In this document: positions 10,329 to 60,713 of the stretch, piece after piece
Position numbering within the stretch: position 1 is the first letter of the stretch
Layout: each line of letters begins with the position of its first letter
Origin: Lobosporangium transversale
Taxonomy: Eukaryota
NCBI RefSeq assembly: GCF_002105155.1
Contig: NW_019028982.1
Span: 744,001-808,000, forward strand
Length of the DNA stretch: 64,000 bases
Direction of reading: 5' to 3'
Program-made: the position numbers and the translations under genes
The notes under the pieces: generated by a model
What the model was told of the DNA's origin: nothing
What the model saw: only the letters and a program-made list of their open reading frames with translations
Databases searched by the model: none

Positions 10329-11090
10329 ATGAACCCTAACCAGGCCTCCCGTAGAATTATTGGTTCGTTCTACAGCGCGCTTTTGCAGCTAGGCAAGTAT
10401 GATTTGAACCATTTGCCGATGCAAGACTATCCAACTTGGGCAAGACGAGTAGTTCATGCTGAACGCAAACGGCGTAAAGACAAAGGAGTAGAAATGCCAA
10501 CAAGGTCTGAAAGGAGAAATATCCTAGATTTCGGCGAGGGGATTATTTCACAACCAAATGGCGATCAGCAAGGGTCAGTTGGCGATGACCAACAGCAGCT
10601 CACTAAGCAGAAAAAGGGGAAAGCCCCAAAACCGACTCCGGAGGAGTTTGATGGTGAATACCTTCATACTTACGTTATTGATGAAGTAACGTACGACGTC
10701 GTCTATGATAAAACCCTCAGTAGGACTGATGGGACACTTACTAAGAGAAACAGCAATGTCTGGGGACACTTTGTCTGCAAAACAGAGGATTGCGGGGAAC
10801 GTAAATGGGACTCATCCGTTATCGCCACCAACCTGAGGTTTTGCAGGCCTCGCAAAGCTTACAAAGTCACGCTCCATGCTCAGAAGTGCAACCAATGCGA
10901 GCAGTATGCGGAGCCTATTGTGGAAGTGACGACCTTAGTTAAAAGAGTAGTTTATGTGTTGGACTTGTGGATGGGCTTCAGAGCCAAAGAGCCTCGTAAA
11001 GATAAGGAAATCAAATCCGATGGCCCTCATGATACTGAACGCTGCCATGGATGTGAAGTAAATGAGTGTCCATATGCAGAAAGGGAATGA
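10329..11090 (+). CDS. zf-3CxxC zinc-binding domain protein (RTP/RTP4-like), copy 1, 253 aa, intronless
   Basis: WGHFVCKTEDC..WDS, HAQKCNQC..EP and GPHDTERCHGC..C match the zf-3CxxC pattern G-x-F-x-C..C..W-x-S..Q-x-CxxC..P..GPH...CxxC. Confidence 0.85.
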   Translation: MNPNQASRRIIGSFYSALLQLGKYDLNHLPMQDYPTWARRVVHAERKRRKDKGVEMPTRSERRNILDFGEGIISQPNGDQQGSVGDDQQQLTKQKKGKAPKPTPEEFDGEYLHTYVIDEVTYDVVYDKTLSRTDGTLTKRNSNVWGHFVCKTEDCGERKWDSSVIATNLRFCRPRKAYKVTLHAQKCNQCEQYAEPIVEVTTLVKRVVYVLDLWMGFRAKEPRKDKEIKSDGPHDTERCHGCEVNECPYAERE

Positions 11091-11349
11091 GTTATGATAT
11101 ATCTAGGCCCTTTCATATTTGTGGACATTTACAAAATAAAAGAAGGAAAAAAGAAGAAAAAAAAAGCTTTCCTGGTGTCATTTCAATGCAGAGCTATGGC
11201 GCGTAGGCCAATCCGGGATGAGATAATTGTTGACTGAATGATCTTGCCAAGCAATTTGGAAATAATCCGTTGAGGTTAGGTAGAAGACAAATCTGCTTAA
11301 TAATTAAGTGACCTTACTATCAATCCCCTTGATTATGAAACTGAGCAGG

Positions 11350-11381
<32 letters not shown>

Positions 11382-12377
11382 AAGAAGGAAAAAACTAGTT
11401 TGAGCCTACGTTAGGGTCCTCGCCAAAAGTATTCTTTCATTGTTTTTAAATTGGCTTTTTTAGAGTTCGAGATACCGTCCTACGATGGGTGAATCATGCA
11501 TATTAGAAAATTTCGAGGAGTGCATGCCCCCTGATTGGCGAAGGCCCTTTTTTTCTTGTTTGTTGACAAGGCACAGAGCGCAAAATAAAATCGTTTGATG
11601 GCTTAAAATGGAAACAGGTGATTTTATTTTATCACAAAGTACAGCCCTCAAGGTATAAACTATGGCCACCATTTAAGTCTCTCTTTCGCAATATTGACCA
11701 AAAGAGTATATGAACCCGCTCCCCTATTAAAAGCCAATCCATCCAATGGCTTGAAGTGGATGTGGGGCGAACGTTAGAAAATAATATACAGCCTTTTTTA
11801 CGCACTGCAGCATAATTTCGCATAATGGGAGTTCTTTTGTCCTTGTGTGTGGTTATAGTATTTGTATTTTTAAGATAATCATATGCCTGACAAGTAGCGC
11901 AAGTGGTGCGGTTGCTACCTTGCCTCTGTTTGCTTATTTGTTTATTTGATCAGCTCTTGATGGTTTGTTGTCGCGCTTAGTTGTTTCACACATTGTGGTG
12001 TATTGTTTCGAAGAAGATGATGTTTGAGACGCTTAGGAGGAAAGGTTATTCAAAAGATCGGATTGTTTGTTGCAGCAAAAAGGTGCTTCTTTTTGGTCAC
12101 GACATAATTCATTTGTTATATTTTAGAATAACCTGTGCCTCTGAATGAGAATATAACATAGTGATATAGATTAACAAATGAATTGTGCTGTGACCAAACG
12201 AACCGGACAATATATCAGTCACATGTTATTAATACCGATTACCAAGGCAGATCCCCCGCGGGATGATCGATTCCCAATTTCACACGCACAGGTCCATGGT
12301 ATCTGGTGATTATGTGTGGCAGTAAGTGGAGGCACAACTTTTTTTTTTTTTTTTTTTTTTTTTTTGTTGAGATCTAG

Positions 12378-12385
12378 TATATAAA
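12378..12385 (+). promoter_or_regulatory. TATA-like box upstream of the dynamin gene
   Basis: TATATAAA 68 bp before the ATG, just downstream of a poly(T) tract. Confidence 0.4.
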
Positions 12386-12445
12386 GAGTGCTGTTTAACT
12401 TTATGAAAAACTAACCTTCAACTTCATTGATCCATTCCATACACC

Positions 12446-14538
12446 ATGTTCGAGAAAACAGAATATCAAAACTTCATTGACAAAGTCAATAAGATCCGAA
12501 GCTATGGATTGAACAAGATGCTGACTATACCACAGATCGCTATCCTAGGCGATCAGTCGAGTGGTAAGTCAAGTGTCCTGGAAGCCCTGACAAGGCTCTC
12601 ATTCCCTCGAAATATCGAAACATGGTAAGATTTACGCTCTTGGTTATCTTTTTGTACATGTTTAGTTTTGACATGTACATCTTTACATTTACCTAACGAA
12701 CGCTTTCCTTCGTCTTTAGTACACGCTTCGCCACACAAGTAAGCTTGCGCCAAAGTCCGCGAAAAGAAATGTCCGCTCATATCGATGGCGAAGCTGCATT
12801 CAACAAGCAATACCAGGCGCAAGAGGCGGATTGGAATATCCATACAATTATTAGCGATGCAAATAGAATTCTATGCTCCTATGTAGAGATTAGCGAAAAA
12901 GTGCTTGAGATCACCATCTCTGGTCCTACATTGTCACCTCTCACTGTCATTGATCTTCCCGGTTATATCAATACAACCGTCGATGGGCAGGACAAAAGCA
13001 TAGTGGAGACCATCCGCACAATCAACACCAAGTACATCAAAGACAGTCGCACTATCATCCTGGCAGTAGTTCCTGCTAATGTGGACCTGAACAATATTTT
13101 CGTGCTCGGTGAAGCAGAACGCTACGATCCAAAAAACGAGCGTACAATCCCCATTGTGACAAAGCCCGATACCGTAGAGCCAGACCTGCTTCCCAATTTG
13201 ATCCAAACAGTGCTTAACAAACGCAAGCAAATGCGCCTAGGATACCTCGTCATGAAGAATTCAAGCTACAAAGACATTGACATTCCTTGGGAAGAGGCCA
13301 AAAAACGAGAGGACGAATTTTTTAAGTCGTCGGAGCTGTGGAATCAGGTGCCGGTTACAAGAAGAGGCCGAGTCCATGTGAAGGAGTTCTTGGGTGATCT
13401 CTTATATACCCATATCAAGAAGGAATTGCCGTTCCTGAGAAAGGATATTCTTGATATGATCAAGGAATGCGAAGATGAAATCACCAGCATGGGCCCACCA
13501 GTGTCGAGCATCGCCACAGCTAAGATTAAATACATTGACAATGTCATGAAGCTCAAGTCCTCGCTCATCGCACTTCTCGACGGCAACTACACCTTCGAGT
13601 ACATCAACCAGAACAAACCAAGTCTGGAAAACCAAGATTCAGTGAGCACTGGCCACGGCGATAGTGAAGATGACATGGTGCCCCTTTCTCTCGAAGAGAG
13701 TAGCCATACCTTCCTTCGCTCGTCGTTACAAACCCTGTACCAGCGATACAATGCTGTGATGAACAAGGACAAGTATATACTTGAAAAGGACAAAATTAGT
13801 GAGCTGGTTCTTCGTTACAAGGGAAAAGAGCTACCCGGATTTATCTCGTTCACCACTTTCACACAGATTTACATGGAAACATTAGTTCGATGGAGCGACA
13901 TGACCAAAGTCCATATCGCCAATATGCACCAGTATTTGTACAAGGCCATCTCTAGGTTCATAGCATTCACCGCAGACCCTCTTATCAAAGACACACTTCT
14001 AATAGAATTCGACAGATTCTATAGCTTACAGATAACAAAAATTGAGAGCGAGATTGAGAGCATCTTCATAGACGAGGACACACCTTTCACGATGAACAAG
14101 TATTATTACGATAACATCCTCAAAAGCAGGAAAGCAAAGGCGGAGCAGAAGATAGCAGAACTGGCGAAATTAGGCACTACACCCGACGAATACACCGCCG
14201 AGTATATCAAAAAACTTTTAGAACAACAATTGGAGTCGTATGGCAATCCCTCACAAATATCTGATGTGAACTATAACGAGGAACTTGCAGTTGAGGACCT
14301 ACAAGAGCAATTGCGGTCTTACTGCAAGGTGGTCCGCAAGCGAATTGTTGATGTAGTTCTTCAACAAACTATTGAGCGGCATATGATAAAGCGAATTAAC
14401 CTCTATTTTGAAATGTTAATCGCTGTCGACGAAGATACAATTTCGAGCCGACTCGTGGAGCCACCAGCAAAGCAAGAACGTCGGCAAGAACTACAAGACA
14501 AAGTAGCGGTCTTACGCAAGAGTCTGCTTGCATTATAG
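12446..14538 (+). CDS. Dynamin-related GTPase of Mx-like architecture, 2 exons, about 665 aa
   Basis: Exons 12446-12624 and 12720-14538 join to give ETCTRFATQ (G2). G1 GDQSSGKS, G3 DLPG, G4 TKPD. Stalk has YKGKELPGF; GED has SYCKVVRKRIVDVV. No PH domain, proline-rich tail or TM segment. Confidence 0.9.
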
Positions 14539-15017
14539 TATTTTATGCAGCATCCATTGAGTCAGAGCCATTTGTGTATTGATTCTTCAAATAAAGTTGT
14601 GGAAAAAAAACACTTGCGTGGGCAATTGGCCTGACCAAATTGAACCGGGCAATGTTACATAAGCTTTTTTATTTTTTTTATTTTTTTATTTGGAGCCTTG
14701 GAAGATTTAGTCTTCGCCTCTTGAAGTCGAGAGGGCGCTGAACATGGGGGGCAGGTCCACGTGATATTGTGCTGTCCAATGATATGTTTGGCTAGCACAG
14801 CAGTAGACTAGAGTCACTAGACTATCTTTTTAGTCTTTTCGGTACCGAGGACCGTGCAAACAATTCTCTTTAAATAATGCACTTCCCGTGTCGCAACTGG
14901 ACTACTATCCCTTGTCCTTCTTTACTACCATCATTTTGATTTTAATCCAGGACACATTTTTTGTATCCTATCAATCAACTCTTCCCTTATCATTCTTTTT
15001 TTTTTATATATATTTAA

Positions 15018-15515
15018 ATGGAAGCAAATGAAGATCACAATCTCGAACATACCAAAGTCACACCTGATGATGTGGTGGTCATAGAAGCGCCCCAAGGAAA
15101 AGGAGGACGGAGTTCTTTGCCAATCATCGGAATCTTCAATAAGAACAGCATCATGGAAGACAACGCGGTACTTCGACAATTTAATGACGCTCAGGGTGGC
15201 TGCAGTGAGCAGACTAATTACTTATTATCGAGACAGACAGCAGAGGGTCCGTGGTTGTGGGAGGACGAATTGCTTTCGTCCCTTGGCCTTATCCCTAGCT
15301 TTACAGCGCAGTCGATGGAGGTCCAAGATACCAAATCGTTGTCAGGAACAATTGCGGCAACTGCATTGGTCCTAAAGTACTTTGATAAGCAGTTGAAAGA
15401 CGATTTAGAGCTATGGACAGATAAGTTCGCAAAGGGAGGAGCTTGGTTGCTCGGACAAGTGGGACCAAATAGGCTGGTGGAGCTTTTAGGACAAGCTGAG
15501 GAATTGATTTGTTGA
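15018..15515 (+). CDS. Stand-alone C-terminal domain of VIT-vWA (VWA5A/PARP4-type) proteins, 165 aa
   Basis: LLSRQTAEGPWLWEDELLSSLGL..IAATALVLKYFDKQLKDDLELW..KGGAWL..LLGQAEELI aligns by eye with the C-terminus of the 50378 protein (LLSLQTFEGSWEWKPELFSCLGL..FVATALSIKFFEKKLGKEKDVW..KARSWI..LLNNVDELI). Confidence 0.75.
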   Translation: MEANEDHNLEHTKVTPDDVVVIEAPQGKGGRSSLPIIGIFNKNSIMEDNAVLRQFNDAQGGCSEQTNYLLSRQTAEGPWLWEDELLSSLGLIPSFTAQSMEVQDTKSLSGTIAATALVLKYFDKQLKDDLELWTDKFAKGGAWLLGQVGPNRLVELLGQAEELIC

Positions 15516-16242
15516 ATTTTTTTTAAAATCTTTCTAAATGTTTCATTCTAAAGTCAATAAACAGTCAGATTTTTCGTGGATACCATCTCGCGTGCTTACG
15601 CGAAGTTTCATGCTGCTTCGACACAAAAGCTCCGCCGTTTCTGTTATTTTTTTATTTTTTTATTTTTTATTTCTCAGCGGGCGCTCTTCCTAAATAGCAT
15701 CAGTGTTTCCAGCTGTAGTAAAAATGACTTTTATTTAGAGGCACCGGACAACAGATCTTACACAATACTTCGATTCAAACTGCCATTAAGGCTTTCAGGT
15801 TTTGTAATGTCTCTGTTCTGAATTTACATTAATGCCTCTAATACTAACATAGATGGTGTTTTATACATATATGCAAAAATCGTTTTATCCTTCGTTTTAC
15901 GTCAGTTATGTTTTACATAAAAACCGCATTATCACGAACACGAAAAAGAATAAAATGGGTTGTTACTTGTCGACATTAGCAAGGAAGGCTTCTAGGAAGG
16001 AAAGAGGCGTTTGATCACTCCTAGCGTTATTGGGAGCTGGTTCGCCTTCTACATTCAGGCAAAAGGAGTGAGTCGTAGCGATAGCGATTTATTTACTTAT
16101 TTTTTTATAGCTGTTATTAATCTATGTGTGCAACCGAGAGAGGATGGTGGCCCTTTGTAAAGTAGCCGTTGTAATAGCCGCTTTGGGATCCAATGTGGCT
16201 CCAAGCCGCAAGGATGTTAACCTTTTGCTTGTGCGCCCTGCT

Positions 16243-17229
16243 TCATTGCGTAGGCTGATCTATCCCATCTCTGAAGCAAATGAGAGTCAAGTCTGTTAAG
16301 CTTATTCTCCGTGCCGTAACACCAAAGTTTATGAGAAGTAAGTTATTTCTTTTACCTTGTCTCTTTATAAATGGATACCTGCACTTGCCCACTTTGCATC
16401 CATAACAACGACTAGACTGATGAGGGCCGAGGGTTATAAATGGGCCGCGATCGCAGATAATCTTGTCCCTTACATCCTTCCACAAATCTAACGCAGAACA
16501 AACCCGTTTACAGTAGCTTTCTGCATCAACAGCGGGCACCATGTATCTTTCACATTTTCTGCAACTTTGGGCATAGAGCGTGACCTTGTAGGAGTTGCTG
16601 CTTTTAGAAAACCTTAGATAGGTGGCGATACAGGCTGATTGCCAACTGTGTCCGTTGCATGTTGATGTTTTACAATTGAATTTTCCGAAGATACCGAGGT
16701 TCCTTTTAAGCAGATGTTCATCGTCATCAATGGGATCTTTAGCGTAGAAAATCTGGTATGTTACTATTTTGATCAAATGAGTATGAAGGTGCTCACCGTC
16801 AACCTCTTTAATCTCTTCAAATTCTTCAACCTCTTTTGGAGTAAGTGCCTCAGGCTTTTTCTTTTCCTCTTTGGCGAGTATCTTCTTTGCTGATTCTGGC
16901 TCATCTTTGGTAGACCTCCGGTCCTTAGCTGCTCTTTGTTGGCTAACATCAGTTTTGTCGTCGCTATCACCCCTAGGCTTTAAGTGCTTCGAATGGACGG
17001 CGTTTGCAGAACCAAGGCTTGTTTTTGCAACATCAATATCTACTGTTTGTTTAGTCCCTTGATCATCAGATCTATCGTCTTTAGTATTAACCTTTCGTCC
17101 GACTATGACTGTATAGTAGTTTTGTAGCGGCCAACAGTTCAAATCATTCTTATTTCGGCTCCTCAGATTGTTGAGGGTTGGACCGAAAAGACTACGGTTA
17201 GGGCGGTGAAGCCAACGTAAGGAGTTCAT
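16243..17229 (-). CDS. zf-3CxxC protein (RTP-like), copy 2, 328 aa, intronless
   Basis: FGKFNCKTSTC..WQS, YAQSCRKC..VP, GPHQSSRCYGC..C. Shares the DG-x-x-LH motif with copies 1 and 3. Confidence 0.85.
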   Translation of the reverse strand: MNSLRWLHRPNRSLFGPTLNNLRSRNKNDLNCWPLQNYYTVIVGRKVNTKDDRSDDQGTKQTVDIDVAKTSLGSANAVHSKHLKPRGDSDDKTDVSQQRAAKDRRSTKDEPESAKKILAKEEKKKPEALTPKEVEEFEEIKEVDGEHLHTHLIKIVTYQIFYAKDPIDDDEHLLKRNLGIFGKFNCKTSTCNGHSWQSACIATYLRFSKSSNSYKVTLYAQSCRKCERYMVPAVDAESYCKRVCSALDLWKDVRDKIICDRGPFITLGPHQSSRCYGCKVGKCRYPFIKRQGKRNNLLLINFGVTARRISLTDLTLICFRDGIDQPTQ

Positions 17230-17670
17230 CTAAAGTAGTTTAGATTTAACGAGTTTATAAAACCTAGTTTAGCCAGCGAACTTTGCAGCGTGATCGGCAA
17301 ATATTCTTATAGAATGTTGGTTACAGAGGTTTCTTTCAATACAGCGGTTGTTTCTGGCAATAATGAGGGAGCTCTTTTTTTCTTTTTTTTTTTTTTGTCT
17401 TTCCTGATTAGCGAAGAAAAGCTGGTTTTTTTTAAAAAAAAAAAAATAAAAAAAAAAAATAAAAAACTACAGGCAGTGAGTGAGATGCACTGATGAAAAC
17501 GGTGCTTCAAGTGATTAATCATTCTCGCGCCGTGGGAAACTGATATTCACCATACTTCTGATGTAGCATTATGCATTTCAGGCGACAAGGCCTTGAAGTC
17601 CGATAGCGATATTAGCAGTGAATTCTCTCTCTCTTTTTTTTTTTTTTTTTTTTTTACTTGTGAAACCAAG

Positions 17671-18132
17671 ATGCCCAACCGATCCCATGCGCGCAAGACC
17701 ATCGATGGAGCATTTCTCCATGCCTATATTATGGGACAAGATTCTTACCCTATTTCCTACGACCAGCATATCCGCGCTACAAAGTATAGAGCACTAGCCA
17801 TCTATGGCTCATTCACTTGCCAGTCACTTAGTTGCGCTAGTCGCACTTGGACCTCAGGCATCATCGCCACTGAACTCAAATTTTCGAATGTTGACAACTC
17901 GTACCACACGACTATCCATTCACAGAGATGTAAGGACTGTGAGCAATATGTAGAGCCATCGGTCAATATAGACGATTATACAGAGAAGATACTGTGGGTC
18001 TTGGATTTGTGGAGAGGCCACAGGAAAGCGATAAAACAGACTGATAATAGAAGTTCGGATGGGCCTCATGGCGATGAACGCTGTCATGCATGTGTCGTTG
18101 GTTCGTGTCCTTGGAAGACCAGAAGACGCTGA
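17671..18132 (+). CDS. zf-3CxxC protein (RTP-like), copy 3, 153 aa from the first ATG
   Basis: YGSFTCQSLSC..WTS, HSQRCKDC..EP, GPHGDERCHAC..C. Divergent from copy 2. An upstream exon is possible because poly(T)+AAG precedes the ATG. Confidence 0.8.
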   Translation: MPNRSHARKTIDGAFLHAYIMGQDSYPISYDQHIRATKYRALAIYGSFTCQSLSCASRTWTSGIIATELKFSNVDNSYHTTIHSQRCKDCEQYVEPSVNIDDYTEKILWVLDLWRGHRKAIKQTDNRSSDGPHGDERCHACVVGSCPWKTRRR

Positions 18133-18367
18133 AAGCCGGCGGTTGAGGAACCAATAATAGATATCTTCGCATCAACTTCAAAACAATAGCACATCCAAGA
18201 AAGCCATCTTTGGAGGAAAGATCAATATTGCAACAACATGGTCAATAAATTGTAAATTTCACGTCAATGAAGGCATTGAATACCTATTTTCATGTTGCAC
18301 GAAGCGTTTATTCACAGCATACGATAATATTTTACAATAAAAAAAGCAAGGGGATCATTCTTCCTCA

Positions 18368-21300
18368 TTATTGTTGGACCCCCTGCTTCTCATTAAAGGC
18401 CGCTTCCGTAGCGGCAGTGGCGGGCCTTTGCGACGATACAGGTGCATTAATTCCGTTAGTATCACCTAGTTTCATCGCTGCTGCCTGCTCCTTGGCCTCT
18501 TGCGCTGCCTTCTCGTCTGCACCAGAGCCGCTGCCCATGGCATCAAGTTTTTTAAGACCGTCTTTTCCTTCCCCTTCTACCTCTTCATACTCTCTCTTTT
18601 CCTGCTCCTTGCGATGGAACTCTTCAGGATCCTCAATCGTCTGCCCTTCGCCCTTAGGTACTTCATTCAACGCCTCCAGGGCCTTCAACTTCAAGATAAT
18701 TTCTCGAATATGATCAATGCTATTCCAAACACGTTCCTGTTGGATTTTGCGAGCTTTTTTCTCTGCTAGCTTTTTCCTGCGTGCTGGTGTGCGGACCACT
18801 GCAGCTGTCAATTCAAACGACCAGATCTTGAACAGTTGGACCTTGACCACATCCAAAGCGATAAAGTAGGCAAAGGAGATGAGAAGAACTACGATTGCCT
18901 GAGAGAAAGGGATCTTGGGTGTCAGCCCTCCAAACACAACCATCAGTAGGGCAATGATCTGGGTGCCGATAATTACAGCCGCGAACAGAGGGGATGGAAG
19001 GTTTTCCCAAAAGTAGCCAGCGAGGCGGGTTGAAAAAATCACAAAGTGAGGCGCAGACGAGATGTGCAGATACATCACCGACTCGAGCTTCCTGTATTCC
19101 TCTGGCTCACTCTCGTGGACCGGTGCATAGCCAAAGTGCTTCCAGAAAGTAAAAAAGTGTGCAAACGATAGGGCCGTGAGGCAAATACCAAGGACTATGG
19201 ACATTGTGATCAGTTGGCCAATACGCCATTTGTCAGGATGCGGCGAGAGCTGAGCATTGTCAACTGCAATCACCAATGTCGCCAAATCGTTCAAGATACA
19301 AATCAAAATCAGCAGGCGTGCAGGCAACGACCAATCATAAGCCATGACGACAATAAAGAAGAACATCAAGAAATGGACCGTAGATGTGATACGATAAAGA
19401 GCATAAGATCGCATGCGCTGAAAAATGGCACGAGACGTTAGCAAACCATCAACAATTGTTGATAGACCTGGAGCCAGCAAAACAATGTCTGCAGCAGAAC
19501 GTGCTGCATCCGTGCATCCATGGACAGCGATACCAACGTTGGCTTTTTTGAGAGCAGGAGCATCATTAACACCGTCTCCGGTCATACCGACAATGATGCC
19601 GCGCTTCTGAAGTAGCTCCACTACACGATACTTGTGTTCTGGAATGACCTGTGCAAATCCATCGGCGCGGATACAGTGCTCTGTCACCTCTTCCTCAGAC
19701 TTGTCAGGATCGGCCAAATGGTTAGCATCAAGAATAACACGGGTAAGACCCAGGCGATGAGCGACTTCTTTGGCAATAATCAATTGGTCGCCAGTCACCA
19801 TCTTGACATCTACGCCCATATGGCGGCAGCGGGCAATGGTCTCTGCAGAATCAGGACGAGGAGGATCAATTAGCGAAATCATACCGATCAACTCGAATTC
19901 CTCAGCCGATCCCTTGCGAGTACGGGCAACGCCGAGTGCACGGAGGCCGCGCTTGGCTAGAGCATTAACAGCTCTAACGGCATCATCATCTCCTCCAACG
20001 AGGCGAATAATGACTTGAGGAGCCCCTTTGGCAACCTTGAATGTCTCGTTAGTCTCCTTGTTGATGACCGTAGCCTGCGTGAGTTTGGTATCAGGGTTGA
20101 AAGGCAGGAAAGAAGTGATCTTGTATCCAGGAATATCATGCTTATGAGTACGGTTCTGTAAGAGGGGCAGTTGTTCTTCAGCAGCAGTACGGACAGCGAG
20201 CTCGATCGGATCATTAGCACCAGCCTCAGCAGCAAGGTATGAGTACAAAAGGATATCCTCAGCAGTATAGTTGTTAGTCAGATATGGCTCGTCGAATGTG
20301 AGTTCGTTTAGGGTGAGAGTCCCAGTCTTGTCGGAGCAAAGAACAGAAACAGAAGCCATTTCCTCGACGGCAGTCAGGCGCTTTACAATAACCTGTTTGG
20401 CAGCGAGCTGCTTTGCCCCAACGGCCATGGTCACAGACATGACTGTGGGTAACCCAACAGGGATGGCAGCGACCGTCAGGACCAGGACACGGCCGAGTAC
20501 AGTAAGGAAAGCACCGTCAGGTGTGCCACGGAAATGTACTAGCTGGTAAACCAGGATAATGCCAACAAGGACAACAGTAATGAGGATCAAAAAGTTTCCA
20601 ATGCGATTAATAATTTTTTGAAAGTGGCCTTCTTCTGTGGTGATGGAGATCAGGTTGGCAGCACGGCCGATAAAGGTGTCAGCTCCAGTTTTAGTCACTA
20701 TGGCCATCTGTTGGCCTTGCTTCACGATTGATGATGAGTAGACGACATCACCTTTCTTCTTGGCTACAGGTAGCGATTCCCCTGTCAATGCAGACTGGTC
20801 GATCATCAACTCAGCGTTTGTCTCTTCACCTGAGGCACCCATGCCAAGAAGACGTCCGTCAGCGGGGACAATGTCGCCTAGGCGCAAGACAATGACATCG
20901 CCTGGTACCAACTCAGTAGTATCAAGTTCAACCAAGTGACCATTACGCCAACATCGAGTCTTGAGAGCTAGTGTCTGGCGTAGTGCATCCAGAGCAGACT
21001 CAGCTTTGGACTCTTCAATGAACCCAATGCAGGCATTAACGAGTAAAAGTGCCAAGATGATGCCAAAGTCAAGCCAATCCTACATAGTCATGTTCACAGA
21101 AGGGCACGATTGTCAGCTGTCAACCCACTGAAAAAAAGTGCATATCGTTGCTTCAACGCGCTCCAAAGCCTTCGAAAGCCCCCCCCCCCCCTCCAAACTC
21201 TCAATGAACCTTACCTTAACAACAGCCGAAATGATGCAGGCGACCTCGATCAAGTAAGCGATAGCACCAGTAAAGTATCCTAAAAACTTGAGGATAGGGT

Positions 21301-40314: not shown

Positions 40315-42277
40315 TGCAAGGGGCAGACTCAGTAAGAACTATATCATTTTGTAACTTAGAGCCCTCATCGGCAGACGAGGACACAGTGGGAAATGGCATA
40401 TAGAGGGTCACCTGATCAAAGCTCTCCTGAGTGGGAGCGGGTCGAAATTGGGTTTTCGGACTGGGAAAAGGTATCTCATGGGTCGTCACCGGGCTTCTCT
40501 GAATGGGAGCAAGTGGATTTTGGCGCTTCTCCGAGGAGTCCGGACACGCTATCTGGATCCCCAGAAGATAGGCGGAGTACGCACTACATCCCAGCAGGCA
40601 ACCAGCAGCATCCTAGTCCGCCCTATATGATTCCCGATGCCGCGTACTTCCCCCCGACACCGTCCACTAGACCAACCGAAACAATTAAATCTGTTGCTAA
40701 AAGCAAGCAAACTGCAGGAACCAAGAAACGAAAAAAGTTTGATATTCAGGAAAAGCTAAAGATCATTGAGTTCGTTGAGAACAATCCAGAAATGACATTA
40801 AGTGAATATGCCACGCACTTTGGTATAGCCAGAGGCACTTTAGATGGCATCATTAAATCCAAAGATAACCTCAAAGCAAGCCTCAATCAACTACCACGAA
40901 CAGATGCAGTGCTAAATGCACGCAACCGCACTGAGCCGCGAAGCCGATTTGTAGAGGAGCTTCTACTGTCCTGGATCACGCATATTAGATCTCAGCATAT
41001 CCCTATTCAACGTAAGAATATTGTCGCACAGGCAATTGCTATCCATCGGATGCTCTCAGGCTTGTTCCAAGCACCACTCGCAAATATAAAGTTTTCTGAT
41101 GGATGGTACCAAGAGTTTTCGAAACGGCGATCCATCACTTCCTATGAAGCTGTCAATGCCAACAGGAATTATGCACTGGAGGAGGAGGAGACGGCTCGCT
41201 TCAGACAGATACTTGAACAGTACAGGATGGATGACATTTATGCATGTGATGCAACTAGTATGTTTTCTGTCCCGGTATGCACCTCGACGGTACATCCTAA
41301 TACAGCATGCAAGCTGCTGAGTGCTGAAGACAGAGACCAGGAGAGAACGAGCTGCGTTTTTGGGCAAGCAGTTTCAATTGTACTCTTTTGCAACGCAACC
41401 GGCACAGGAAGGCTTGACCCTGTCATGCTTGGTAAGCAAACAGCATTTTGATAGGAGAAGCTAAGGGTGCTTGCTTGACTTTAATTTTATACTTTATTTT
41501 TGTTTGTGTTTTTTGAAAAAGAAGAAAGACTTGAATAGCAGATTCTAACATCCTTCGTCTCTGTGCAATGTTGCAAATCAAATAGATCGACTATATCAGT
41601 ATGTCCCTGGTCACTATGGCGTTAGGGTCTTGCGAGATCAAGATGTAAACAGGATGCCATTTACTGAGTGGTTGCTCGCTTTTGATAGCGTGCTTGAGCG
41701 CAACGCGTTGCTTCTTCTGAGCCAGGAGGTGTATGATCAAGTCAAAAGTGCCTTGCCTGCCTTCCGTTACCTCAAAGTCATTCCTGCTCCTGCACACCTC
41801 AACGCGCTGCTACCTATGCGGGCAGGAATTTCAAAGCATTTCAAGGCTTACATCAACATCATACAATTTGAAAGAACTCTACGACGCCGTGACACTTATG
41901 GAGACACCTACAGCATTGCGTGGGGAATGGTGGGGAATGCAGCTATTAAACAATCTTTCTCAGTTCTTCTGAGAGAAGTTGGCTATTTGGAGCCACAGAG
42001 TCCCTTGGTAATTCATGAGTTGGATGAACTCCAGGCCACGAAAGATAAGTTGGACAACATACTGAGCCATGCTCATAAGAATATGCATAAGAGCATTCGT
42101 CAGTATTATTTCAATCAGGACAACGATATTGGTCCATCTGCATTCCTGTATGAAGAAATCATGAAGATGCACAAAAGCTCGGATGCTAGTCGATACCTGC
42201 TTGGAATTGAAAACAATACCCGGCCGTGGGAAGAATGGTGGAAACATGTTGTGATCTGTTCCGGATCGCCTCTGTAA
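39279..42277 (+). CDS. Domesticated pogo/Tc5 (CENP-B/PDC2-like) transposase-derived protein, 4 exons, 856 aa
   Basis: Exons 39279-39677, 39827-40234, 40360-41431, 41586-42277 splice in frame. CENP-B-type HTH (KRKKFDIQEKLKII..FGIARGTLDGIIK), Tc5 HTH (EELLLSWI..KFSDGWYQEF) and DDE_1 remnants (IYACDATSMF, CNATGT, FTEWL). Confidence 0.8.
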
Positions 42278-50377: not shown

Positions 50378-53359
50378 ATGCAAATATTCATTTGTGGACT
50401 TTCTTCTGTGGGCAATCATAACAAATATCTGCCCTTAGTTGACATCAAAGCCCACACAGAGATCCTGGCCCTCAACTCTCGCACGAAACTCACTCAAACT
50501 TTCATCAATCCGTCTAATGACACCATTCCTGAATTACAATACACTTTCCCTCTTTACGATGGTGTCAGTGTCGTCAGTTTCAATTGCCAAATTGGTGATA
50601 GGTTCATTAAAGGTCAAGTTAAGGAACGATTCCAGGCCAGAACTGAATTTAATGACGCTGTCGGCCAGGGCAAGGCTGCCGCGCTTTTGGAGCAGCTTCC
50701 CGATGCGTCGGATGTCTTCACTAGCTCGGTTGGTAATGCGCCTCCAGGGTCGACCATTCTTGTCGAGATCACGTTCATTGGTGAGCTCAAACACGATGCG
50801 GAAATCGATGGTACTCGTTTCACTATCCCCACGAAAATCATGCCGCGGTATGGCCATTATCCAGTTGAGCTCTACACGGGTGCCCATGCCCAAAAGGCTA
50901 CAGGGGGTGGCCTTCAGGTCACAGTTGATATTATCATGCCCGACCAAAAACCTATTCAACAAATCCAATCACCTAGTCACCCTATTGCTGTTTCTATCGG
51001 CACCACTTCTATCGCTCCCAACGCCACGCCCACCATGTCTAAAGCATCAGCAACACTCAGTCTTGGTACAGCAGAACTGGATAAAGATTTCGTCATTCAT
51101 GTCTTGGCCAAGGACACAGGCGATCCTAGTGCTATCCTTGAAACCCATCCTTCTATTCCTAACCAGCGGGCTCTGATGACCACGCTTGTCCCTCGGTTTC
51201 AACTTCCTCCAGAGAAACCAGAAATTATCTTTGTCTGCGACCGCAGCGGTAGTATGCACGGAACAGCAATGTCATTAGCAAGATCAGCATTAAATGTCTT
51301 CTTGAAGAGCTTGCCTGTCGGTGTAAAGTTCAACATTTGCTCTTTCGGCAGCAACTACTCCTTCCTCTGGGATAAAAGCCAGATATATTCTCAAAACACA
51401 TTAGATCAAGCTATCAATTATGTAAAGGAGATGGAGGCCAACATGGGGGGCACGGAGATGTTTCCGTGTATCAAAGCGACAGTGGAAAAACGAAGCCAGG
51501 ATATGCCTCTGGAGATCATGTTGCTTACCGATGGTGAGATATGGAACCAAGATCAGCTCTTTTCGTACTTGAATAAAGAGGTTATGGAGAGCAAGATGCC
51601 AATCCGCGTCTTTACTTTGGGTGTTGGTAATGGTGTCTCTCATGCACTGATCGAAGGTGTTGCCAAGGCTGGAAATGGGTTCTCGCAGACTGTGGGCGAA
51701 GGCGAAATGATGGACAAGAAGGTGGTTCGCATGCTCAAGGGTGCACTCTCACCTCACTTTACCAATTACACACTGGAGGTGAAGTACGGCGATGCTACCG
51801 AAGAGAACAGCGGCAAGGTAGATGAGGATGACGAAGGGTTTGAGATGGTTGAAAGAGTGACAGACAGCCTTGAAGTCAAACTAAATATTACGAAGGAAAA
51901 GAAGCCGATTTCTCTCTTTGACAAGTCTATTGACCTTGATAAGACCCCCTCCGATGGCGATGAGGATCTGCCACAATTGGCTCCTCCAAAGCTGCTGCAG
52001 GCGCCACATGTCATTCCTCCACTCTACGCTTTCAACCGAACAACTGTATACCTCCTCATGGGCCCTGGATCCAACCCAAGGACTCCAAAATCTGTAATCC
52101 TTCGCGGAGAGTCATGGAGAGGCCCACTTGAGCTTGAAATCCCCATCCAAGTCCTTGATACTCCTGGAGAAACCATTCACCAGATGGCTGCCAAGAAGGC
52201 TATTGCAGAACTTGAACAGGGCCGTGGCTGGGTTACTCAGGCCAAGGACGACAAGGGCACTTTAATCAAGGCCAAATTTGGTGGAGCGGTTTTTGAACGC
52301 TTGGTTGAAAAAGAGGCAGTTCGCTTAGGTATTCAATTCCAAATTCAAAGTGAATGGTGTTCATTCGTTGGAGTCGAAAATACGCCCCAGAGTGAAGCAG
52401 CAAACAATAATAGCAACAGAAACTGGGATATTTTCTCTCCGCCGGCCTGCAGGGACATTGATCAGAATTTAATCCAAGCCAGAGGAGTAGGATCAGGCTT
52501 GGGTCATTTTCAGAGCTTTGGCTACTCTGCAAATGGTTCAGTGGGGTTAGCTTATCCTAGACTTAGAGGCGGTGCCCTGCCTATGGCATATACGGCACCC
52601 ATGGCTCAGGCTCAACAACAGGCTCAACAGCCTCAAATATCATACAGAGGTAGCGATTTCGTGACAGGCTTTGGCGCCGCAGCTTGTCAACCTCCACCCC
52701 CACCGCCAGCTCCAGGGTCTGGAATGACATTTGGTTCGGCACCAACCACTTTTGGAAGTTTTGGTTCGGCTCCAGCCACTTTTGGATCAGGCTTCGGTTC
52801 AGCCTCAATCGCTTTTGGAGCAACAACATCAGCCGCTTCTGGAGTACCACCAACCACGTTTGACGCAGCCCCAGCTGCTTTTGGATCGGCCTCAACCGCT
52901 TTTGGAGCATCACCAATCACGTTTGGCGCAGCCCCAACTGCTTTTGGATCGGCCTCAACTACTTTTGGAAAAGGTTTTGGTGCGGCTAAAACAATAGTTA
53001 CAACAACTTCATTTTCTCCAGTTGCTGCTACTGCAGAGAACCATTTGGAAACGTTACTCTCCTTACAAACATTTGAGGGGTCCTGGGAATGGAAACCTGA
53101 GCTGTTTTCGTGCCTTGGCCTTAAACCTGATGATGTTTCACAAAACTTGATAGCCAAGGGCATTAGAGATAATAGCTCTTCTTTATTGGCGACATTTGTG
53201 GCTACTGCTCTATCAATCAAGTTCTTTGAGAAAAAGTTGGGTAAGGAGAAGGATGTCTGGGATTTGGTTGTTCAAAAGGCAAGATCATGGATAGAGTCTC
53301 ATATAGGAGAGACTCACACAGAAGAACTCTTGAACAATGTCGATGAACTGATTGAGTAA
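50378..53359 (+). CDS. VIT + vWA domain protein (VWA5A/PARP4-like), 993 aa, intronless
   Basis: VIT: LTQTFINPS..YTFPLYDGVSVVSF..AAALLEQ..DVFTSSVGN. vWA MIDAS DRSGSM..GGTEM..LLTDGE..FTLGVG. C-terminal LQTFEGSW domain. Confidence 0.9.
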   Translation: MQIFICGLSSVGNHNKYLPLVDIKAHTEILALNSRTKLTQTFINPSNDTIPELQYTFPLYDGVSVVSFNCQIGDRFIKGQVKERFQARTEFNDAVGQGKAAALLEQLPDASDVFTSSVGNAPPGSTILVEITFIGELKHDAEIDGTRFTIPTKIMPRYGHYPVELYTGAHAQKATGGGLQVTVDIIMPDQKPIQQIQSPSHPIAVSIGTTSIAPNATPTMSKASATLSLGTAELDKDFVIHVLAKDTGDPSAILETHPSIPNQRALMTTLVPRFQLPPEKPEIIFVCDRSGSMHGTAMSLARSALNVFLKSLPVGVKFNICSFGSNYSFLWDKSQIYSQNTLDQAINYVKEMEANMGGTEMFPCIKATVEKRSQDMPLEIMLLTDGEIWNQDQLFSYLNKEVMESKMPIRVFTLGVGNGVSHALIEGVAKAGNGFSQTVGEGEMMDKKVVRMLKGALSPHFTNYTLEVKYGDATEENSGKVDEDDEGFEMVERVTDSLEVKLNITKEKKPISLFDKSIDLDKTPSDGDEDLPQLAPPKLLQAPHVIPPLYAFNRTTVYLLMGPGSNPRTPKSVILRGESWRGPLELEIPIQVLDTPGETIHQMAAKKAIAELEQGRGWVTQAKDDKGTLIKAKFGGAVFERLVEKEAVRLGIQFQIQSEWCSFVGVENTPQSEAANNNSNRNWDIFSPPACRDIDQNLIQARGVGSGLGHFQSFGYSANGSVGLAYPRLRGGALPMAYTAPMAQAQQQAQQPQISYRGSDFVTGFGAAACQPPPPPPAPGSGMTFGSAPTTFGSFGSAPATFGSGFGSASIAFGATTSAASGVPPTTFDAAPAAFGSASTAFGASPITFGAAPTAFGSASTTFGKGFGAAKTIVTTTSFSPVAATAENHLETLLSLQTFEGSWEWKPELFSCLGLKPDDVSQNLIAKGIRDNSSSLLATFVATALSIKFFEKKLGKEKDVWDLVVQKARSWIESHIGETHTEELLNNVDELIE
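52725..52985 (+). repeat. Degenerate 7-aa (21-bp) FG-containing coding repeats
   Basis: TFGSAPT/TFGS/AFGSAST/AFGASPI/TFGAAPT units; recurring ttttggatcggcctcaac in the DNA. Confidence 0.85.
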
Positions 53360-53869: not shown

Positions 53870-54781
53870 TTATTCGATCTTTTGATCATGGTATTTCAAT
53901 TCTTCCTCTGTCAAAACAATACCAAAGTATTTCTCTAGTGCATCCAATCGATCCTGCTCCTTGGTGAAGACGATTGTTTCTACGTTGCCTGTAGCTGTCC
54001 GGATCTTGAATTGCTTGTCCAGCAGCATATATATCTTGCCATCCAATGTGGCCTGAACACACCAGAATGAAGAGTAGAATACGGATTTGGGTGAATGACA
54101 GGTATAAAAGTTGCCCATCTCGCAATCAATCTCATAAAATTGATCCTCCGTAAACGCATAGCATGGAACCCACTTGTCCTCACCCAAGTATTCTTCCATC
54201 AACCAAAGCTGCTGAGGAGGATTTCCTAACAATTCCGGTTGTGCCTCATTATGGACGGTCTTGCTCATACGACGCTTATGTCCAAAATATTCGACTACAG
54301 CACCTTCTTTCAACGGGATTGGGTAGAATGAAGTATTGCCGAAGCCAATGTCGAACAGGTATTTGGATCCATCCTTCAATCGCACGATGGACACTCGATG
54401 AGAGAGCATCTGGAAACGAATGGGATCACCGTAATTCAAAGGCTTACAGACACGAGCTATCGTGAACTGAACTGTAAATCCAAGGCCCCGAAGGAGTTCA
54501 TACGCAAGTTTGTTGAGAGAAAAACACCATCCACCACGGTGCTGATTGATGATGCGATCGTAAATCCCTTGAAGAGTGATATCTACTTCACGAGCCTTTG
54601 TTAACCGTAAACTCAAAGTTTCAAATGGGATTGATGTGACGCATCGGTATTCCAGTTCACGAAGGGTCTCATATGTTGGCTTGGGTAATTCATCCGGATT
54701 TTCTAGTGGGTAATTAATGTGTCGAAGAATATTGAAGAGTTGCTCACGGGTGAACTGTTCCTGACTCACTGCAACTGTCAT
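53870..54781 (-). CDS. Arylamine N-acetyltransferase family protein, 303 aa, intronless
   Basis: IPFETL, RGGWCFSLN (catalytic Cys), SHR (His) and FDIGFG (Asp) triad; C-terminal LEKYFGI. Confidence 0.9.
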   Translation of the reverse strand: MTVAVSQEQFTREQLFNILRHINYPLENPDELPKPTYETLRELEYRCVTSIPFETLSLRLTKAREVDITLQGIYDRIINQHRGGWCFSLNKLAYELLRGLGFTVQFTIARVCKPLNYGDPIRFQMLSHRVSIVRLKDGSKYLFDIGFGNTSFYPIPLKEGAVVEYFGHKRRMSKTVHNEAQPELLGNPPQQLWLMEEYLGEDKWVPCYAFTEDQFYEIDCEMGNFYTCHSPKSVFYSSFWCVQATLDGKIYMLLDKQFKIRTATGNVETIVFTKEQDRLDALEKYFGIVLTEEELKYHDQKIE

Positions 54782-54998
54782 GGAGGCTGTAATTATGAAA
54801 GATATAGAGGATAAAGATGAAAATGAGTGAAGAGAAAAAAAAAGAAAATGAAAAAAGAAAGATAATTTTTGACGAAATGAAATGAGCTTGAACTGAACTT
54901 GGGAGATTCTGCGATCTTTTTAACGTGTTCTAGTCTTATCGATCAGCGCCGTGAAATCTTACAAATGTCAAATGTTTAATTAGAGTTGCACTGAGGCT

Positions 54999-55081: not shown

Positions 55082-55376
55082 ATGTCAGCAAGAGGAACAT
55101 TTTTTTTTTCTCTCTCTCTGGGGAAACGACTACGCAGCTCCCTTTTGACAAAAAACTTCAACGGACTGTGACTCAATCCACAAATATTGGCAGGAACATC
55201 GTCAATTGACAATCTATCTCTTTCCAGGAACACAGAAAAACCCTATTTAAGGCATCAAGTGGATCAGTCTCTTTTTTTCCTTTTCATTATTATTTGTTTC
55301 CCACGCTCTTCCCTGATACCAAAGCACTTTCAAATACACATACCAAAGAAAAATAAACCCCTCCCACCTAGAAACC

Positions 55377-56153
55377 ATGTCTCCTTCTGATCAAAACGCC
55401 GTTGCTACTCACTTCCGCGCTCTTCACAAGCCTGGAAACCCCTTGATCCTCGGCAATGTCTATGATGCTGCCACTGCATCCATCATAGTTTCTGTCCCTT
55501 CAGCTAAGGCTGTTGCCACTGCCAGTTTTGCTATTGCTGCAGCAGAGGGCGTTAATGACGAAGATCTGACGCGTGAGCAGAACTTTGCTGCTATCAAAAA
55601 GATTGCTGCTGTAGTTGTTCCCAAGAACTTGCCCTTGACCGCAGACCTATAAGATGGATATGACGATGTCAAAGCCACGATCAAGGAGGCCATCGCACTA
55701 GGCGTTGTAGGATGCAATTTGGAGGATGTTGACAATAAGACCCATACGTTGAGGACTTCGGAGGATGCAGTCCATCGAATCAAGTTGGCGCTTGAGGCCG
55801 CTAAAGAGGCTGGTGTACCTGAATTTGCTGTCAATGCCAGGACAGATGTCTTGGGCTATGGTGGTTCAGTTGAAGATGCGATTGAGAGAGGGAAAGCTTT
55901 TTTGGCTGCTGGGGCCAACACAGTCTTCGTATGGGGTGGGCCTCGTGGTCGTGGCGTCTCACGAGAGGAAGTCAAGGAGCTTGCCACCGCATTGGATGGG
56001 CGATTGAATGTCCTTCTACGTTTCGGTGAGGGCTACTTGACGGTCCAAGAGCTGAGGGAGATTGGCGTTGCTCGTATTAGTGTGGGACCAGGTCTTTTCA
56101 GAATTGCCACGAATGCGTACAGGGAAGCAGCCGAGTCACTCCTTGGAGCCTAA
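55377..56153 (+). pseudogene. ICL/PEP-mutase superfamily enzyme interrupted by one in-frame TAA at 55650-55652
   Basis: NVYDAATA, ATASFAIA, TADL*DGY, GCNLED, NARTD, AGANTVFV and GVARIS all lie in a single frame. Confidence 0.8.
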
Positions 56154-57531: not shown

Positions 57532-58116
57532 AATGATTATTGCCATGCGTTATCCATGCTGGTATGCTCATGAGGTGGTGCTTTTTTTTTTTTTTTTTTC
57601 CTTTCCACTATCCTTTGTGTAACAAATCTTATCACATTCTTTGTGCAGAGAAGCATGGACCATTACACGCACAATAACAGGATTTTGGCAAAGCTTTTCT
57701 TTTTTTCCTTCAAGTAAGGGGTGGAAATGTAGGAAGCTAGAGTTGGCCAATGGAAAATAACCGTGCTTCGCCTTGCTGTGCCGAATTCGCCTTTCGTAGA
57801 ACTATTGCAACATAGGCAATAGAGCTCTAGGCGCTACATCTTTAACTTTCCTGAAAAGTAACAAACTGACCTGTCTTGGCATTTTCATACCCCCTCCCCT
57901 GGATAAATGTGCTACAACATACCAATAAGGAAGGTAAAGAGTCAATGTAGCTATATGCATTTATATACTACAAACAACATCATTTTTACTGAGAATATAA
58001 GAACTGCTTCTTTGTGTTTTTGAATCTTGTCTCTCACAAATAAGCAATCCATTAAAAAAAGAAAAAGAAAAAAAATGGCCCTTTCTTCTCCCATTCCTCT
58101 CTCCCCTCTTCACGAA

Positions 58117-59067
58117 ATGATGGAAAAAGAATCCACCACTAAATTCATTCCAGATGTCGAAAAAGAGCTGGAGGAAATCAAGGTCTTCCTAGTCGAATCA
58201 CTTAAAGAGGTTGAGGACTATCTTAACAAGCTCACCGTTTCTCTTTATAGAAGCACCACTTGTGAGTTACAGGTCTTGACAAAAGACCTCTTGGATATTG
58301 TGGAACGATATTACAACCGTACACTCCCAGATCTTTGCAAAATCGTTGATCAGATCCGAGCTTTGATGACCCGGTACGAGCACGCTTTCGAAGTCTTCGT
58401 CGATGAAGCCAAAGACACCATTTCGTCCTTACAAGACCTGATCAATATGGTCCCACCTTTACAGAGAGCCCACGAAGAAGCCGCGAACGGCTTTCAAATC
58501 ATTTCTTTCAGGGCGCAAGATCTGATTGACAAATACAACGAGGCCTCTCGCGGTCATACTGAGACTCCACCCGACATAAAATTGTTTCATTTGGGTTAGG
58601 TACTCTTGCTTTTGTGGCCGTACCCTGTTTACCCTTGGCCCCCGTCGCAGGGACGATCAAATTGGCTGGTACCATTGCAGTGATGGCCGCAAGTAGCGGA
58701 AGTGGTGTCTCTGGGTTGGTAGCCAAGTATGACCAAGACTGAGATCTATAGCCAGGGCGTTGCCTACTTGCTGAAGCTGGAAGACTGTAATAGAGGGATC
58801 AAAGAACCCATTGCTGAAATTGGGAACAAGCTCTATGCTTGCAAGAATTTATTAGAAGAGGTGAAGAGCCACAGCAACCTAATCATGGTCGACAAGTATG
58901 CAGTGGATGTTCGGAAAAAAGAATACGAATGCGCGAAATGGAAGGCAGTGGCGATGAAGGAACTCTGTAATAGCATAATGTGCCATACGTATCAGATTTC
59001 CAAGCTTGGAATGACAGCTGAGTTTAAGAGGAAGCAAATCACCGAAGCAGCCTCTGCTGCTATCTGA
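58117..59067 (+). pseudogene. Helical hairpin family copy 1, two frameshifts
   Basis: Homologous to copies 3 and 4. The frame shifts near 58575 (true frame IVSFGLGTLAFVAVP..) and shifts back near 58728. Confidence 0.8.
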
Positions 59068-59197
59068 TATGGTGAATTAGCTATTCTTCTTTGTATATAG
59101 TTGTGTACAGGGACAAGCGTTTATAGGTTTGTTGCCCATATAGTGTCCAATGTGTCGAGGGAATAAAAAGCAAATGATGGCCCTATTGCTCTCCAGA

Positions 59198-59233
<36 letters not shown>

Positions 59234-60547: not shown

Positions 60548-60713
60548 CAAAATAACTATCTTTATTTGTGTAAGCTGTGTAAAGGAACAAGCGTTTATCG
60601 GTTTTGTTGGCCCTATTGCTCTCCAGAAGTCTTTTTTTTTTTATACAAACTGGGGTTTTATTGTTTATTTTTCCTTCATATCAGGGGTGAATGTTGAAAA
60701 CCACATGTTTATA

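What the first reader, a model, noticed from the sequence alone, without database searches (positions are those of the whole stretch)
10329..18132. Candidate fungal innate-immunity island: Mx-like dynamin + three RTP4-like zf-3CxxC genes + stand-alone PARP4/VWA5A C-terminal domain
Seen: five consecutive, nearly intronless genes in 7.8 kb between a degraded relic and PMA1, arranged zf-3CxxC(+), dynamin(+), VIT-vWA C-domain(+), zf-3CxxC(-), zf-3CxxC(+). No housekeeping gene is interspersed. Known: animal Mx GTPases (dynamin superfamily without PH/PRD) and RTP4 (zf-3CxxC) are interferon-induced antiviral effectors, and PARP4 is a vault-associated VIT-vWA protein. Inference: these families may form a linked sensor/effector module against mycoviruses or endobacteria, with zf-3CxxC proteins as RNA sensors or adaptors and the dynamin as effector. 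I know of no described fungal system of this composition.
Basis: partly seen in the sequence, partly recalled or inferred. Interest (0 to 1): 0.9.

Follow-up and report, generated by a model that had tools for sequence, protein, structure and literature searches.

The report
Fungal Mx-like GTPase among zinc fingers
In a soil fungus, a spliced gene for a relative of the antiviral Mx GTPases sits between three genes for likely RNA-binding zinc fingers related to animal ZAR1 and RTP4; all look like candidate defence genes, but they are likely neighbours through local duplication, not a shared immune machine.

Summary
All five genes are real. The GTPase (665 aa, one spliced intron) is not Vps1 or Dnm1. 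It belongs to the published fungal Mx-like (MxF) family, is multi-copy across Mortierellaceae, and has a hypervariable stalk loop where Mx has its target loop. The three zinc-finger genes are true zf-3CxxC (PF13695). They lack RTP4's membrane anchor, and the one modelled matches the ZAR1 RNA-binding fold best (weakly). One carries an undescribed helical N-terminal module. The 165-aa ORF is a free-standing VWA5A-type C-terminal domain; the PARP4/vault link is unsupported. The 'island' reading is weak. In 17 other Mortierellaceae assemblies none of 43 sampled zinc-finger/MxF pairs are neighbours, although this test has limited power. In the same species a second MxF and three more zinc-finger genes lie on separate scaffolds. 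Two of the three zinc-finger genes here group with this species' own paralogues and flank the GTPase as an old inverted pair. Best reading: a lineage-specific cluster of fast-turnover, probably defence-type families that act separately. A co-functioning MxF plus zf-3CxxC module is not excluded (about 15%) and would be striking.

The parts
10329..11090 (+). zfA: 253-aa protein; four-helix N-terminal module (about residues 7-70), disordered linker, zf-3CxxC domain (144-243)
   Evidence: PF13695 E 2.4e-14; AlphaFold2 mean pLDDT 87.8; best fold match ZAR1 RNA-binding domain 9jko, Z 4.7, rmsd 3.6, 79 aligned; N-module in 24 of 173 relatives
12446..14538 (+). MxF (fungal Mx-like) dynamin-superfamily GTPase, 665 aa; exons 12446-12624 and 12720-14538; G1-G4 intact; no PH domain; hypervariable stalk loops at 361-380 and 541-580
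   Evidence: Pfam; P0002 is 100% identical and named Lobosporangium transversale; a 2020-nt contig of run X5 skips the intron; family profile scores MxA 243.8 bits, Vps1 172.6, Drp1 152.4; motifs; conservation profile
15018..15515 (+). ORF165: stand-alone VWA5A-type C-terminal helical domain
   Evidence: 38% over 100 aa to the C-terminus of the VIT-vWA gene at 50378-53356; Atlas nearest cluster 154 aa, 86 members, commonest Mucoromycota, score 0.96; structure rows VWA5A-like TM 0.55-0.59; 333-nt X5 contig over 14919-15251 with no differences
15963..17229 (-). zfB: zf-3CxxC protein, 319 aa (two-exon database model, intron 16355-16049) or 328 aa (unspliced, ends 16243); diverged N-terminal module; inverted relative to zfA
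   Evidence: PF13695 E 7.1e-11; exon model reproduces P0123; inverted similarity to zfA at 73-80% in three patches; dN/dS 0.28 against zfA in the domain
17671..18132 (+). zfC: 153-aa zf-3CxxC protein without the N-module, head to head with zfB (441 nt between the start codons)
   Evidence: PF13695 E 9.3e-14; groups with copies from other genera in the domain tree, support 0.83

Best explanation
This is a lineage-specific cluster of three multi-copy gene families that likely act separately and likely came together by local duplication: a spliced Mx-like (MxF) GTPase, likely an Mx-type restriction factor; three zf-3CxxC proteins predicted to bind RNA; and a free VWA5A-type C-terminal domain of untested role. 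Shown: intact GTPase motifs, stalk-GED architecture without a PH domain, splicing, purifying selection, multi-copy families and scattered paralogues. Inferred mechanism: the GTPase oligomerises through its stalk and uses GTP turnover to trap or disrupt a foreign assembly (viral ribonucleoprotein or replication membrane), recognised through the hypervariable loop at 541-580, the position of Mx loop L4 (recalled). The zinc-finger proteins are soluble and likely bind RNA through the Cys/His domain, as ZAR1 and RTP4 do, with the basic helical N-module as an extra binding surface. zfA and zfB arose by an old inverted duplication around the GTPase and ORF165.
For: MxF membership: the family profile ranks MxA/MxB above Vps1, Drp1, dynamin and Mgm1, also for like-sized GTPase-BSE constructs (218.7 vs 172.6 bits). 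Family member P0078, 48% identical to the window GTPase over 670 columns, reads about 90% identical by eye to the published MxF KAF9951223.1. Turnover: 28 of 49 tagged assemblies have 2-5 copies among only the 120 hits listed, with tandem MxF pairs in 3. zf genes are tandem in 4 of the 6 assemblies with two or more tags, and also in L. transversale and L. elongata. Independence: 0 of 43 zf-MxF pairs within 5 tags or on a same-length contig in 17 other assemblies. In the same species the second MxF (P0053) is on a 942-kb scaffold and three more zf genes are on a 395-kb scaffold, apart from the 1.35-Mb one here. zfA and zfB group with those three paralogues (support 0.96) and are an inverted pair. 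No zf-dynamin fusion in 40 zf and 8 long MxF proteins scanned. RNA role: ZAR1 RNA-binding domain is the top fold match; 8 of the 40 zf relatives scanned carry C2H2 fingers scored as PF12171, and one carries a 3'-5' exonuclease. Purifying selection: dN/dS 0.13-0.28.
Against: The linkage test saw only part of each repertoire: 120 of 362 GTPase hits and 24 zf tags. Under universal linkage, seeing none has probability 0.03-0.12 if genomes hold 6 zf genes, but 0.26-0.44 if they hold 15; partial linkage is not excluded. Many assemblies are fragmented. The duplications are old (dS about 1.8-3), so the cluster has been kept for a long time, which selection for linkage would also explain. No antiviral function is shown for any MxF; Langley et al. 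call it unclear. The ZAR1 fold match is weak (Z 4.7, tied with unrelated helical rows). Foldseek separates MxB (E 9e-25) from dynamin (9e-23) only slightly.
Confidence: 0.55

Rival explanations
1. A selected, co-regulated defence module: zf-3CxxC proteins would sense viral RNA and recruit or activate the MxF GTPase, with ORF165 as an adaptor or decoy; a fungal parallel of the interferon-induced RTP4 plus Mx set.
For: Both animal relatives are antiviral; the 3CxxC domain is the antiviral core of RTP4 (PMC8172065 and PMC12431671 passages). The GTPase is flanked on both sides by zf genes; the paralogues are old yet still clustered. GTPase and ORF165 both appear in one RNA-like run. zfB and zfC share a 441-nt divergent region. 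In three Podila/Mortierella assemblies two zf genes flank one unidentified gene (tags two apart).
Against: 0 of 43 pairs adjacent in 17 assemblies; unlinked copies in the same species; no fusion; no paper found reporting an RTP4-Mx complex (listing only). Earlier scan notes report MxF beside other, unrelated immune-type genes (unchecked).
Confidence: 0.17
2. Non-immune roles: the zf proteins would be ZAR1-like regulators that store or repress mRNA in spores or sexual development, the GTPase a lineage-specific membrane-remodelling enzyme, and the neighbourhood incidental.
For: Top fold match is ZAR1, and the architecture (N-terminal region, C-terminal zf, no membrane anchor) is ZAR1-like rather than RTP4-like. 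PF13695 is enriched among genes differentially expressed during Podospora sexual development (bioRxiv 10.1101/2024.12.09.627484, one passage). The GTPase is expressed in a run with no recorded infection (conditions unknown).
Against: Copy-number flux, a hypervariable loop (column identity 0.13-0.27 against 0.7-0.86 in the best-conserved GTPase blocks) and possible transfer between distant fungi fit conflict genes better than housekeeping ones, as argued for MxF in PMC11789081.
Confidence: 0.23
3. The cluster is decaying debris of mobile or duplicated DNA.
For: ORF165 is a fragment-like domain; zfB has a diverged N-module; a Tc5/pogo relic lies at 40-42 kb.
Against: All frames are open, the Cys/His ligands and G1-G4 are intact, dN/dS is 0.13-0.28, the GTPase is spliced, and ORF165 has same-sized free-standing look-alikes.
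Confidence: 0.05

Closest known systems
Fungal MxF proteins (Langley et al., PNAS 2025, PMC11789081; passages and supplements 1, 5 and parts of 6, 9, 12, 13 seen)
   Same: GTPase-stalk-GED without PH; variable copy number; present in Mucoromycota and chytrids; a near-identical relative of the paper's Mortierella alpina MxF is in this protein's hit list at 48% identity
   Different: No gene-neighbourhood link to zf-3CxxC was seen in the passages read; the window protein belongs to a different Mortierellaceae subclade than P0078; no function is tested for any MxF
Human MxA/MxB
   Same: Best sequence and top Foldseek matches; variable loop at the L4 position (position recalled)
   Different: About 20-30% identity; no interferon system in fungi; no long N-terminal extension; activity untested
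RTP4 / RTP family (PF13695; PMC8172065, PMC12431671 passages)
   Same: Same 3CxxC zinc domain with conserved Cys/His; lineage-specific expansion
   Different: RTP4 is zinc finger, disordered region, transmembrane anchor; these have the finger at the C-terminus, no anchor, and zfA has a helical N-module with no clear PDB match
ZAR1/ZAR2 RNA-binding domain (PDB 9jko)
   Same: Top fold match to zfA residues 137-252 (Z 4.7, rmsd 3.6, 79 aligned, 18% identity); soluble, C-terminal finger
   Different: ZAR1 regulates maternal mRNA in oocytes (listing and abstract starts); no sequence hit in the PDB; RNA binding untested here
VWA5A-type VIT-vWA proteins
   Same: ORF165 matches their C-terminal helical domain
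   Different: No VIT, vWA or PARP domain; stand-alone 165 aa; no link to PARP4 or vaults shown

Membership tests
MxF / Mx clade | Dynamin-type GTPase with intact G1-G4, middle domain and GED | tested here: met
   Pfam; motifs at residues 35, 59, 138, 207
MxF / Mx clade | No PH/PRD and no long B-insert | tested here: met
   665 aa; model is all-helical after the G domain, with a 40-residue variable loop before GED
MxF / Mx clade | Closer to Mx than to Vps1/Dnm1/Mgm1 | tested here: met
   Profile scores 243.8 / 172.6 / 152.4 / 124.1 bits; family includes a near copy of a published MxF
MxF / Mx clade | Monophyly with Mx in a GTPase tree with reference dynamins | not testable with these tools
   No reference Mx/Vps1/Dnm1 sequences were stored; my tree holds only family members. 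The published tree places KAF9951223.1 among MxF
MxF / Mx clade | Antiviral activity or inducibility | not testable with these tools
   Needs infection data or assays
Vps1/Dnm1 orthologue | Single copy, best match to Vps1 or Drp1 | tested here: not met
   28 of 49 tagged assemblies with 2-5 copies; Mx scores higher
zf-3CxxC (PF13695) | Pfam gathering score and three Cys pairs plus His | tested here: met
   54.1, 43 and 52.2 bits against cut-off 23; ligands conserved
RTP4 proper | N-terminal finger, disordered region and C-terminal transmembrane anchor | tested here: not met
   Finger is C-terminal; best 19-residue hydropathy 1.26, 0.39, 0.58
RTP4 / ZAR1 | RNA binding by the finger | not testable with these tools
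   Only indirect: fold match, fusions in relatives; domain pI 8.2, 9.3, 6.6
PARP4 (vault PARP) | PARP catalytic, BRCT, VIT and vWA domains (recalled) | tested here: not met
   No Pfam domain in ORF165; named structure rows are VWA5A-like
Conserved defence gene cluster | Linkage repeated in independent lineages | tested here: inconclusive
   0 of 43 pairs in 17 assemblies; power limited

The most novel reading that the evidence does not exclude
Mortierellaceae own an interferon-free antiviral cassette in which expanded ZAR1/RTP4-type RNA-binding fingers, armed with an undescribed helical module, sense viral RNA and hand it to an Mx-like GTPase whose hypervariable loop sets the target, with a free VWA5A C-domain as adaptor: the RTP4-plus-Mx pairing existing in fungi as a physical gene cluster.
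Probability: 0.15. Interest if true: 0.85.

Novelty: new member of a known kind. Interest (0 to 1): 0.4.

Why it matters
Whether fungal Mx-like GTPases are antiviral is an open question raised in 2025. My searches found no paper on the function of fungal zf-3CxxC proteins. This locus gives a compact, partly expressed test set for both. If the genes act together it would be a first fungal counterpart of the Mx/RTP4 arm of animal innate immunity. If they do not, it is an ordinary cluster of fast-turnover genes, and still points to an unstudied expanded zinc-finger family with a new N-terminal module.

Tried and rejected
No whole genome was held, so genome-wide copy numbers are lower bounds. Complex prediction of GTPase with zfA gave no verdict (score 0.00 in two runs, alignments not used); this is no evidence either way. 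No holder was on record as RNA. Run X5 (RNA guessed; its contigs skip three introns) has no contig of zfA, zfB or zfC themselves, only pieces of zfA paralogues; contigs show presence, not absence. Word-based search with zfC found only itself; with the 30-sequence alignment, 9 proteins. The metagenome scan gave one 1.9-kb MxF contig with no zf or ORF165 match. Viral contigs: no zf relative and no close MxF; 8 distant dynamins at 24-31%, mostly giant-virus records. Bacterial genomes: one 26% hit. No PDB sequence hit for the zf profile, no viral fold match at E 0.001 or better, no clear fold for the N-module (Z 4.6 or less). The Atlas look-up for zfA did not complete. Matching the published MxF by mass and composition failed; short motifs found its near relative. 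NCBIfam added nothing. No terminal repeats of a mobile element were seen around the cluster, and GC3 of 0.42-0.53 is like that of the neighbours. Literature searches found no description of MxF-zf linkage; subscription papers are not covered, bioRxiv supplements are closed, and files 13-19 of PMC11789081 were not searched for genus names.
Full report
Observation. The five genes are present as described: zfA 10329-11090(+), a dynamin-superfamily gene 12446-14538(+) with one 95-nt intron, ORF165 15018-15515(+), zfB starting at 17229(-), and zfC 17671-18132(+). A P-type ATPase follows; an FAD-binding oxidase gene lies upstream at about 5.5-7.4 kb. All three zf proteins pass the Pfam cut-off for PF13695. 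The GTPase equals database protein P0002 (100% over the 605 residues searched, 665 aa), which its source names Lobosporangium transversale, Mortierellaceae. The 'relic' at 7.5-9.5 kb gave no family or protein match.

Expression. Run X5 is only guessed to be RNA, but its contigs skip the GTPase intron (95 nt, GT..AG) and two introns of the ATPase. A 2020-nt contig covers 12432-14546 without a difference, and a 333-nt contig covers 14919-15251 of ORF165. So these two genes are transcribed in at least one sample; levels cannot be read from contigs.

The GTPase is an MxF. G1-G4 are intact. The model (pLDDT 80.6, pTM 0.54) shows a G domain, a helical stalk and GED, and no PH domain. A profile of 36 family members scores MxA 243.8 bits, Vps1 172.6, Drp1 152.4, dynamin-1 149 and Mgm1 124.1; for like-sized constructs, stalkless MxA scores 218.7 against Vps1 172.6. 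Foldseek ranks MxB first, with dynamin close behind. Langley et al. (PMC11789081; passages) named fungal Mx-like proteins MxF, found them in Mucoromycota and chytrids with strong copy-number flux, and left their function open. Their Mortierella alpina member KAF9951223.1 sits among MxF in their tree (supplement passages). Its aligned N-terminal 130 residues read about 90% identical, by eye, to my hit P0078, which is 48% identical to the window protein over 670 columns. The search found 362 proteins and listed 120. Among those listed, 28 of 49 tagged assemblies have 2-5 copies and 3 have tandem pairs. In 92 labelled sequences of 570 aa or more, identity to the window protein is 0.7-0.86 in the best-conserved G-domain blocks but 0.17 at 361-380 and 0.13-0.27 at 541-580. 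The second stretch is where Mx carries its target-selecting loop L4 (recalled). A chytrid and a Mucorales copy nest among the Mortierellaceae sequences, which suggests transfer or contamination.

The zinc fingers. A full HMMER search found 358 clusters at E 0.001 or better and listed 150. I looked up 30: 22 carry an organism name, all Mortierellaceae. zf genes often lie in tandem (also L. transversale and L. elongata tags). The zfA model (pLDDT 87.8) has a four-helix N-module, a disordered linker and the finger. The top fold match is the RNA-binding domain of human ZAR1 (Z 4.7, rmsd 3.6, 79 aligned), weak and tied with unrelated helical rows that cover only the N-module. The N-module occurs in 24 of 173 stored relatives (8 were seeds), up to three times per protein; zfB keeps a diverged copy and zfC has none. 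RTP4 is finger, disordered region and membrane anchor, with the finger as antiviral core (PMC12431671 and PMC8172065, passages). The fungal proteins lack the anchor. Of 40 mostly long relatives scanned, 8 carry C2H2 fingers scored as PF12171, a family that generic C2H2 fingers can also hit, and one has a 3'-5' exonuclease. This points to nucleic-acid work but not to immunity as such. One passage in a Podospora preprint lists PF13695 among families enriched in genes differentially expressed during sexual development.

ORF165. It matches the last 100 residues of the intact VIT-vWA gene at 50378-53356 (38%, E 2e-17). The nearest Atlas cluster is 154 aa, 86 members, commonest Mucoromycota, and the named structure rows are VWA5A-like. 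So it is likely a member of a free-standing family, not a broken gene. Nothing ties it to PARP4.

Is it an island? Seventeen other assemblies had both a tagged zf gene (24) and a tagged MxF (33). None of the 43 pairs was within 5 tags or on a contig of the same length; the closest was 21 tags apart on different contigs. Power is limited: under universal linkage the chance of seeing none is 0.03-0.12 with 6 zf genes per genome and 0.26-0.44 with 15; linkage in a fifth of genomes is not excluded. In the same species a second MxF lies on a 942-kb scaffold and three further zf genes on a 395-kb scaffold, while this cluster is on a 1.35-Mb one (longest-contig column). In a tree of 169 domains, zfA and zfB group with those three paralogues (0.96) and zfC with copies from other genera (0.83). 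zfA and zfB are an inverted pair around the GTPase and ORF165. Synonymous divergence is high (1.8-3) and dN/dS is 0.20-0.28 for the fingers and 0.13 for the GTPase against L001: old, constrained copies. No fusion of finger and GTPase was found. Earlier scan notes describe MxF genes beside an NLR, a coiled-coil gene or each other in other fungi, read as independent neighbours (unchecked leads). Clustering of immune-type genes is known for fungal NLRs (PMC12258605, passages).

Mechanism and verdict. Most likely (0.55) the GTPase is a stand-alone Mx-type restriction factor, the fingers are soluble RNA binders, and they are neighbours because both families duplicate and move in the same changeable region. 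A true sensor-effector module (0.17) or non-immune, ZAR1-like and membrane roles (0.23) remain open. Each part belongs to a known family. The composition was not found in print by my ten searches, but it is not shown to be conserved or cooperative. Interest 0.4.

Noticed in passing
window 57900-64000 (+): Tandem array of at least four paralogous genes of about 300 aa, 65-71% alike in DNA, with no convincing Pfam family, a central hydrophobic stretch and dN/dS near 0.87 between two copies. The layout recalls helical pore-forming proteins (recalled, untested).
   Followed up: partly
window 50378-53356 (+): Intact single-ORF VIT-vWA (VWA5A-like) gene of 993 aa with a low-complexity repeat region; homologous to ORF165 at its C-terminus.
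   Followed up: partly
window 10329-10540 (zfA residues 1-70): Undescribed basic four-helix module, present in 24 of 173 zf relatives and repeated up to three times; no clear fold match.
   Followed up: partly
P0038 and P0027 (relatives of window 12446-14538): MxF copies named Powellomyces (chytrid, 64%) and Apophysomyces (Mucorales, 65%) nest among Mortierellaceae copies: horizontal transfer or contamination.
   Followed up: partly
named records BG006_010761/010763, BG005_004465/004467, BGZ74_007127/007129: Two zf-3CxxC genes flank one unidentified gene in three assemblies.
   Followed up: no
window 40360-42274 (+): Tc5/pogo-type transposase in pieces (HTH_Tnp_Tc5, CENP-B_N).
   Followed up: no
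window 53873-54919 (-) and 55317-56150 (+): N-acetyltransferase gene (PF00797) and an ORF pair resembling the PEP mutase/isocitrate lyase family (recalled), next to the VIT-vWA gene.
   Followed up: no
run X7 on window 11122-11324, 14907-15065, 18197-18407: Contigs differ only by C>T or G>A, as in a bisulfite library; not strain variation.
   Followed up: no
   Followed up: partly
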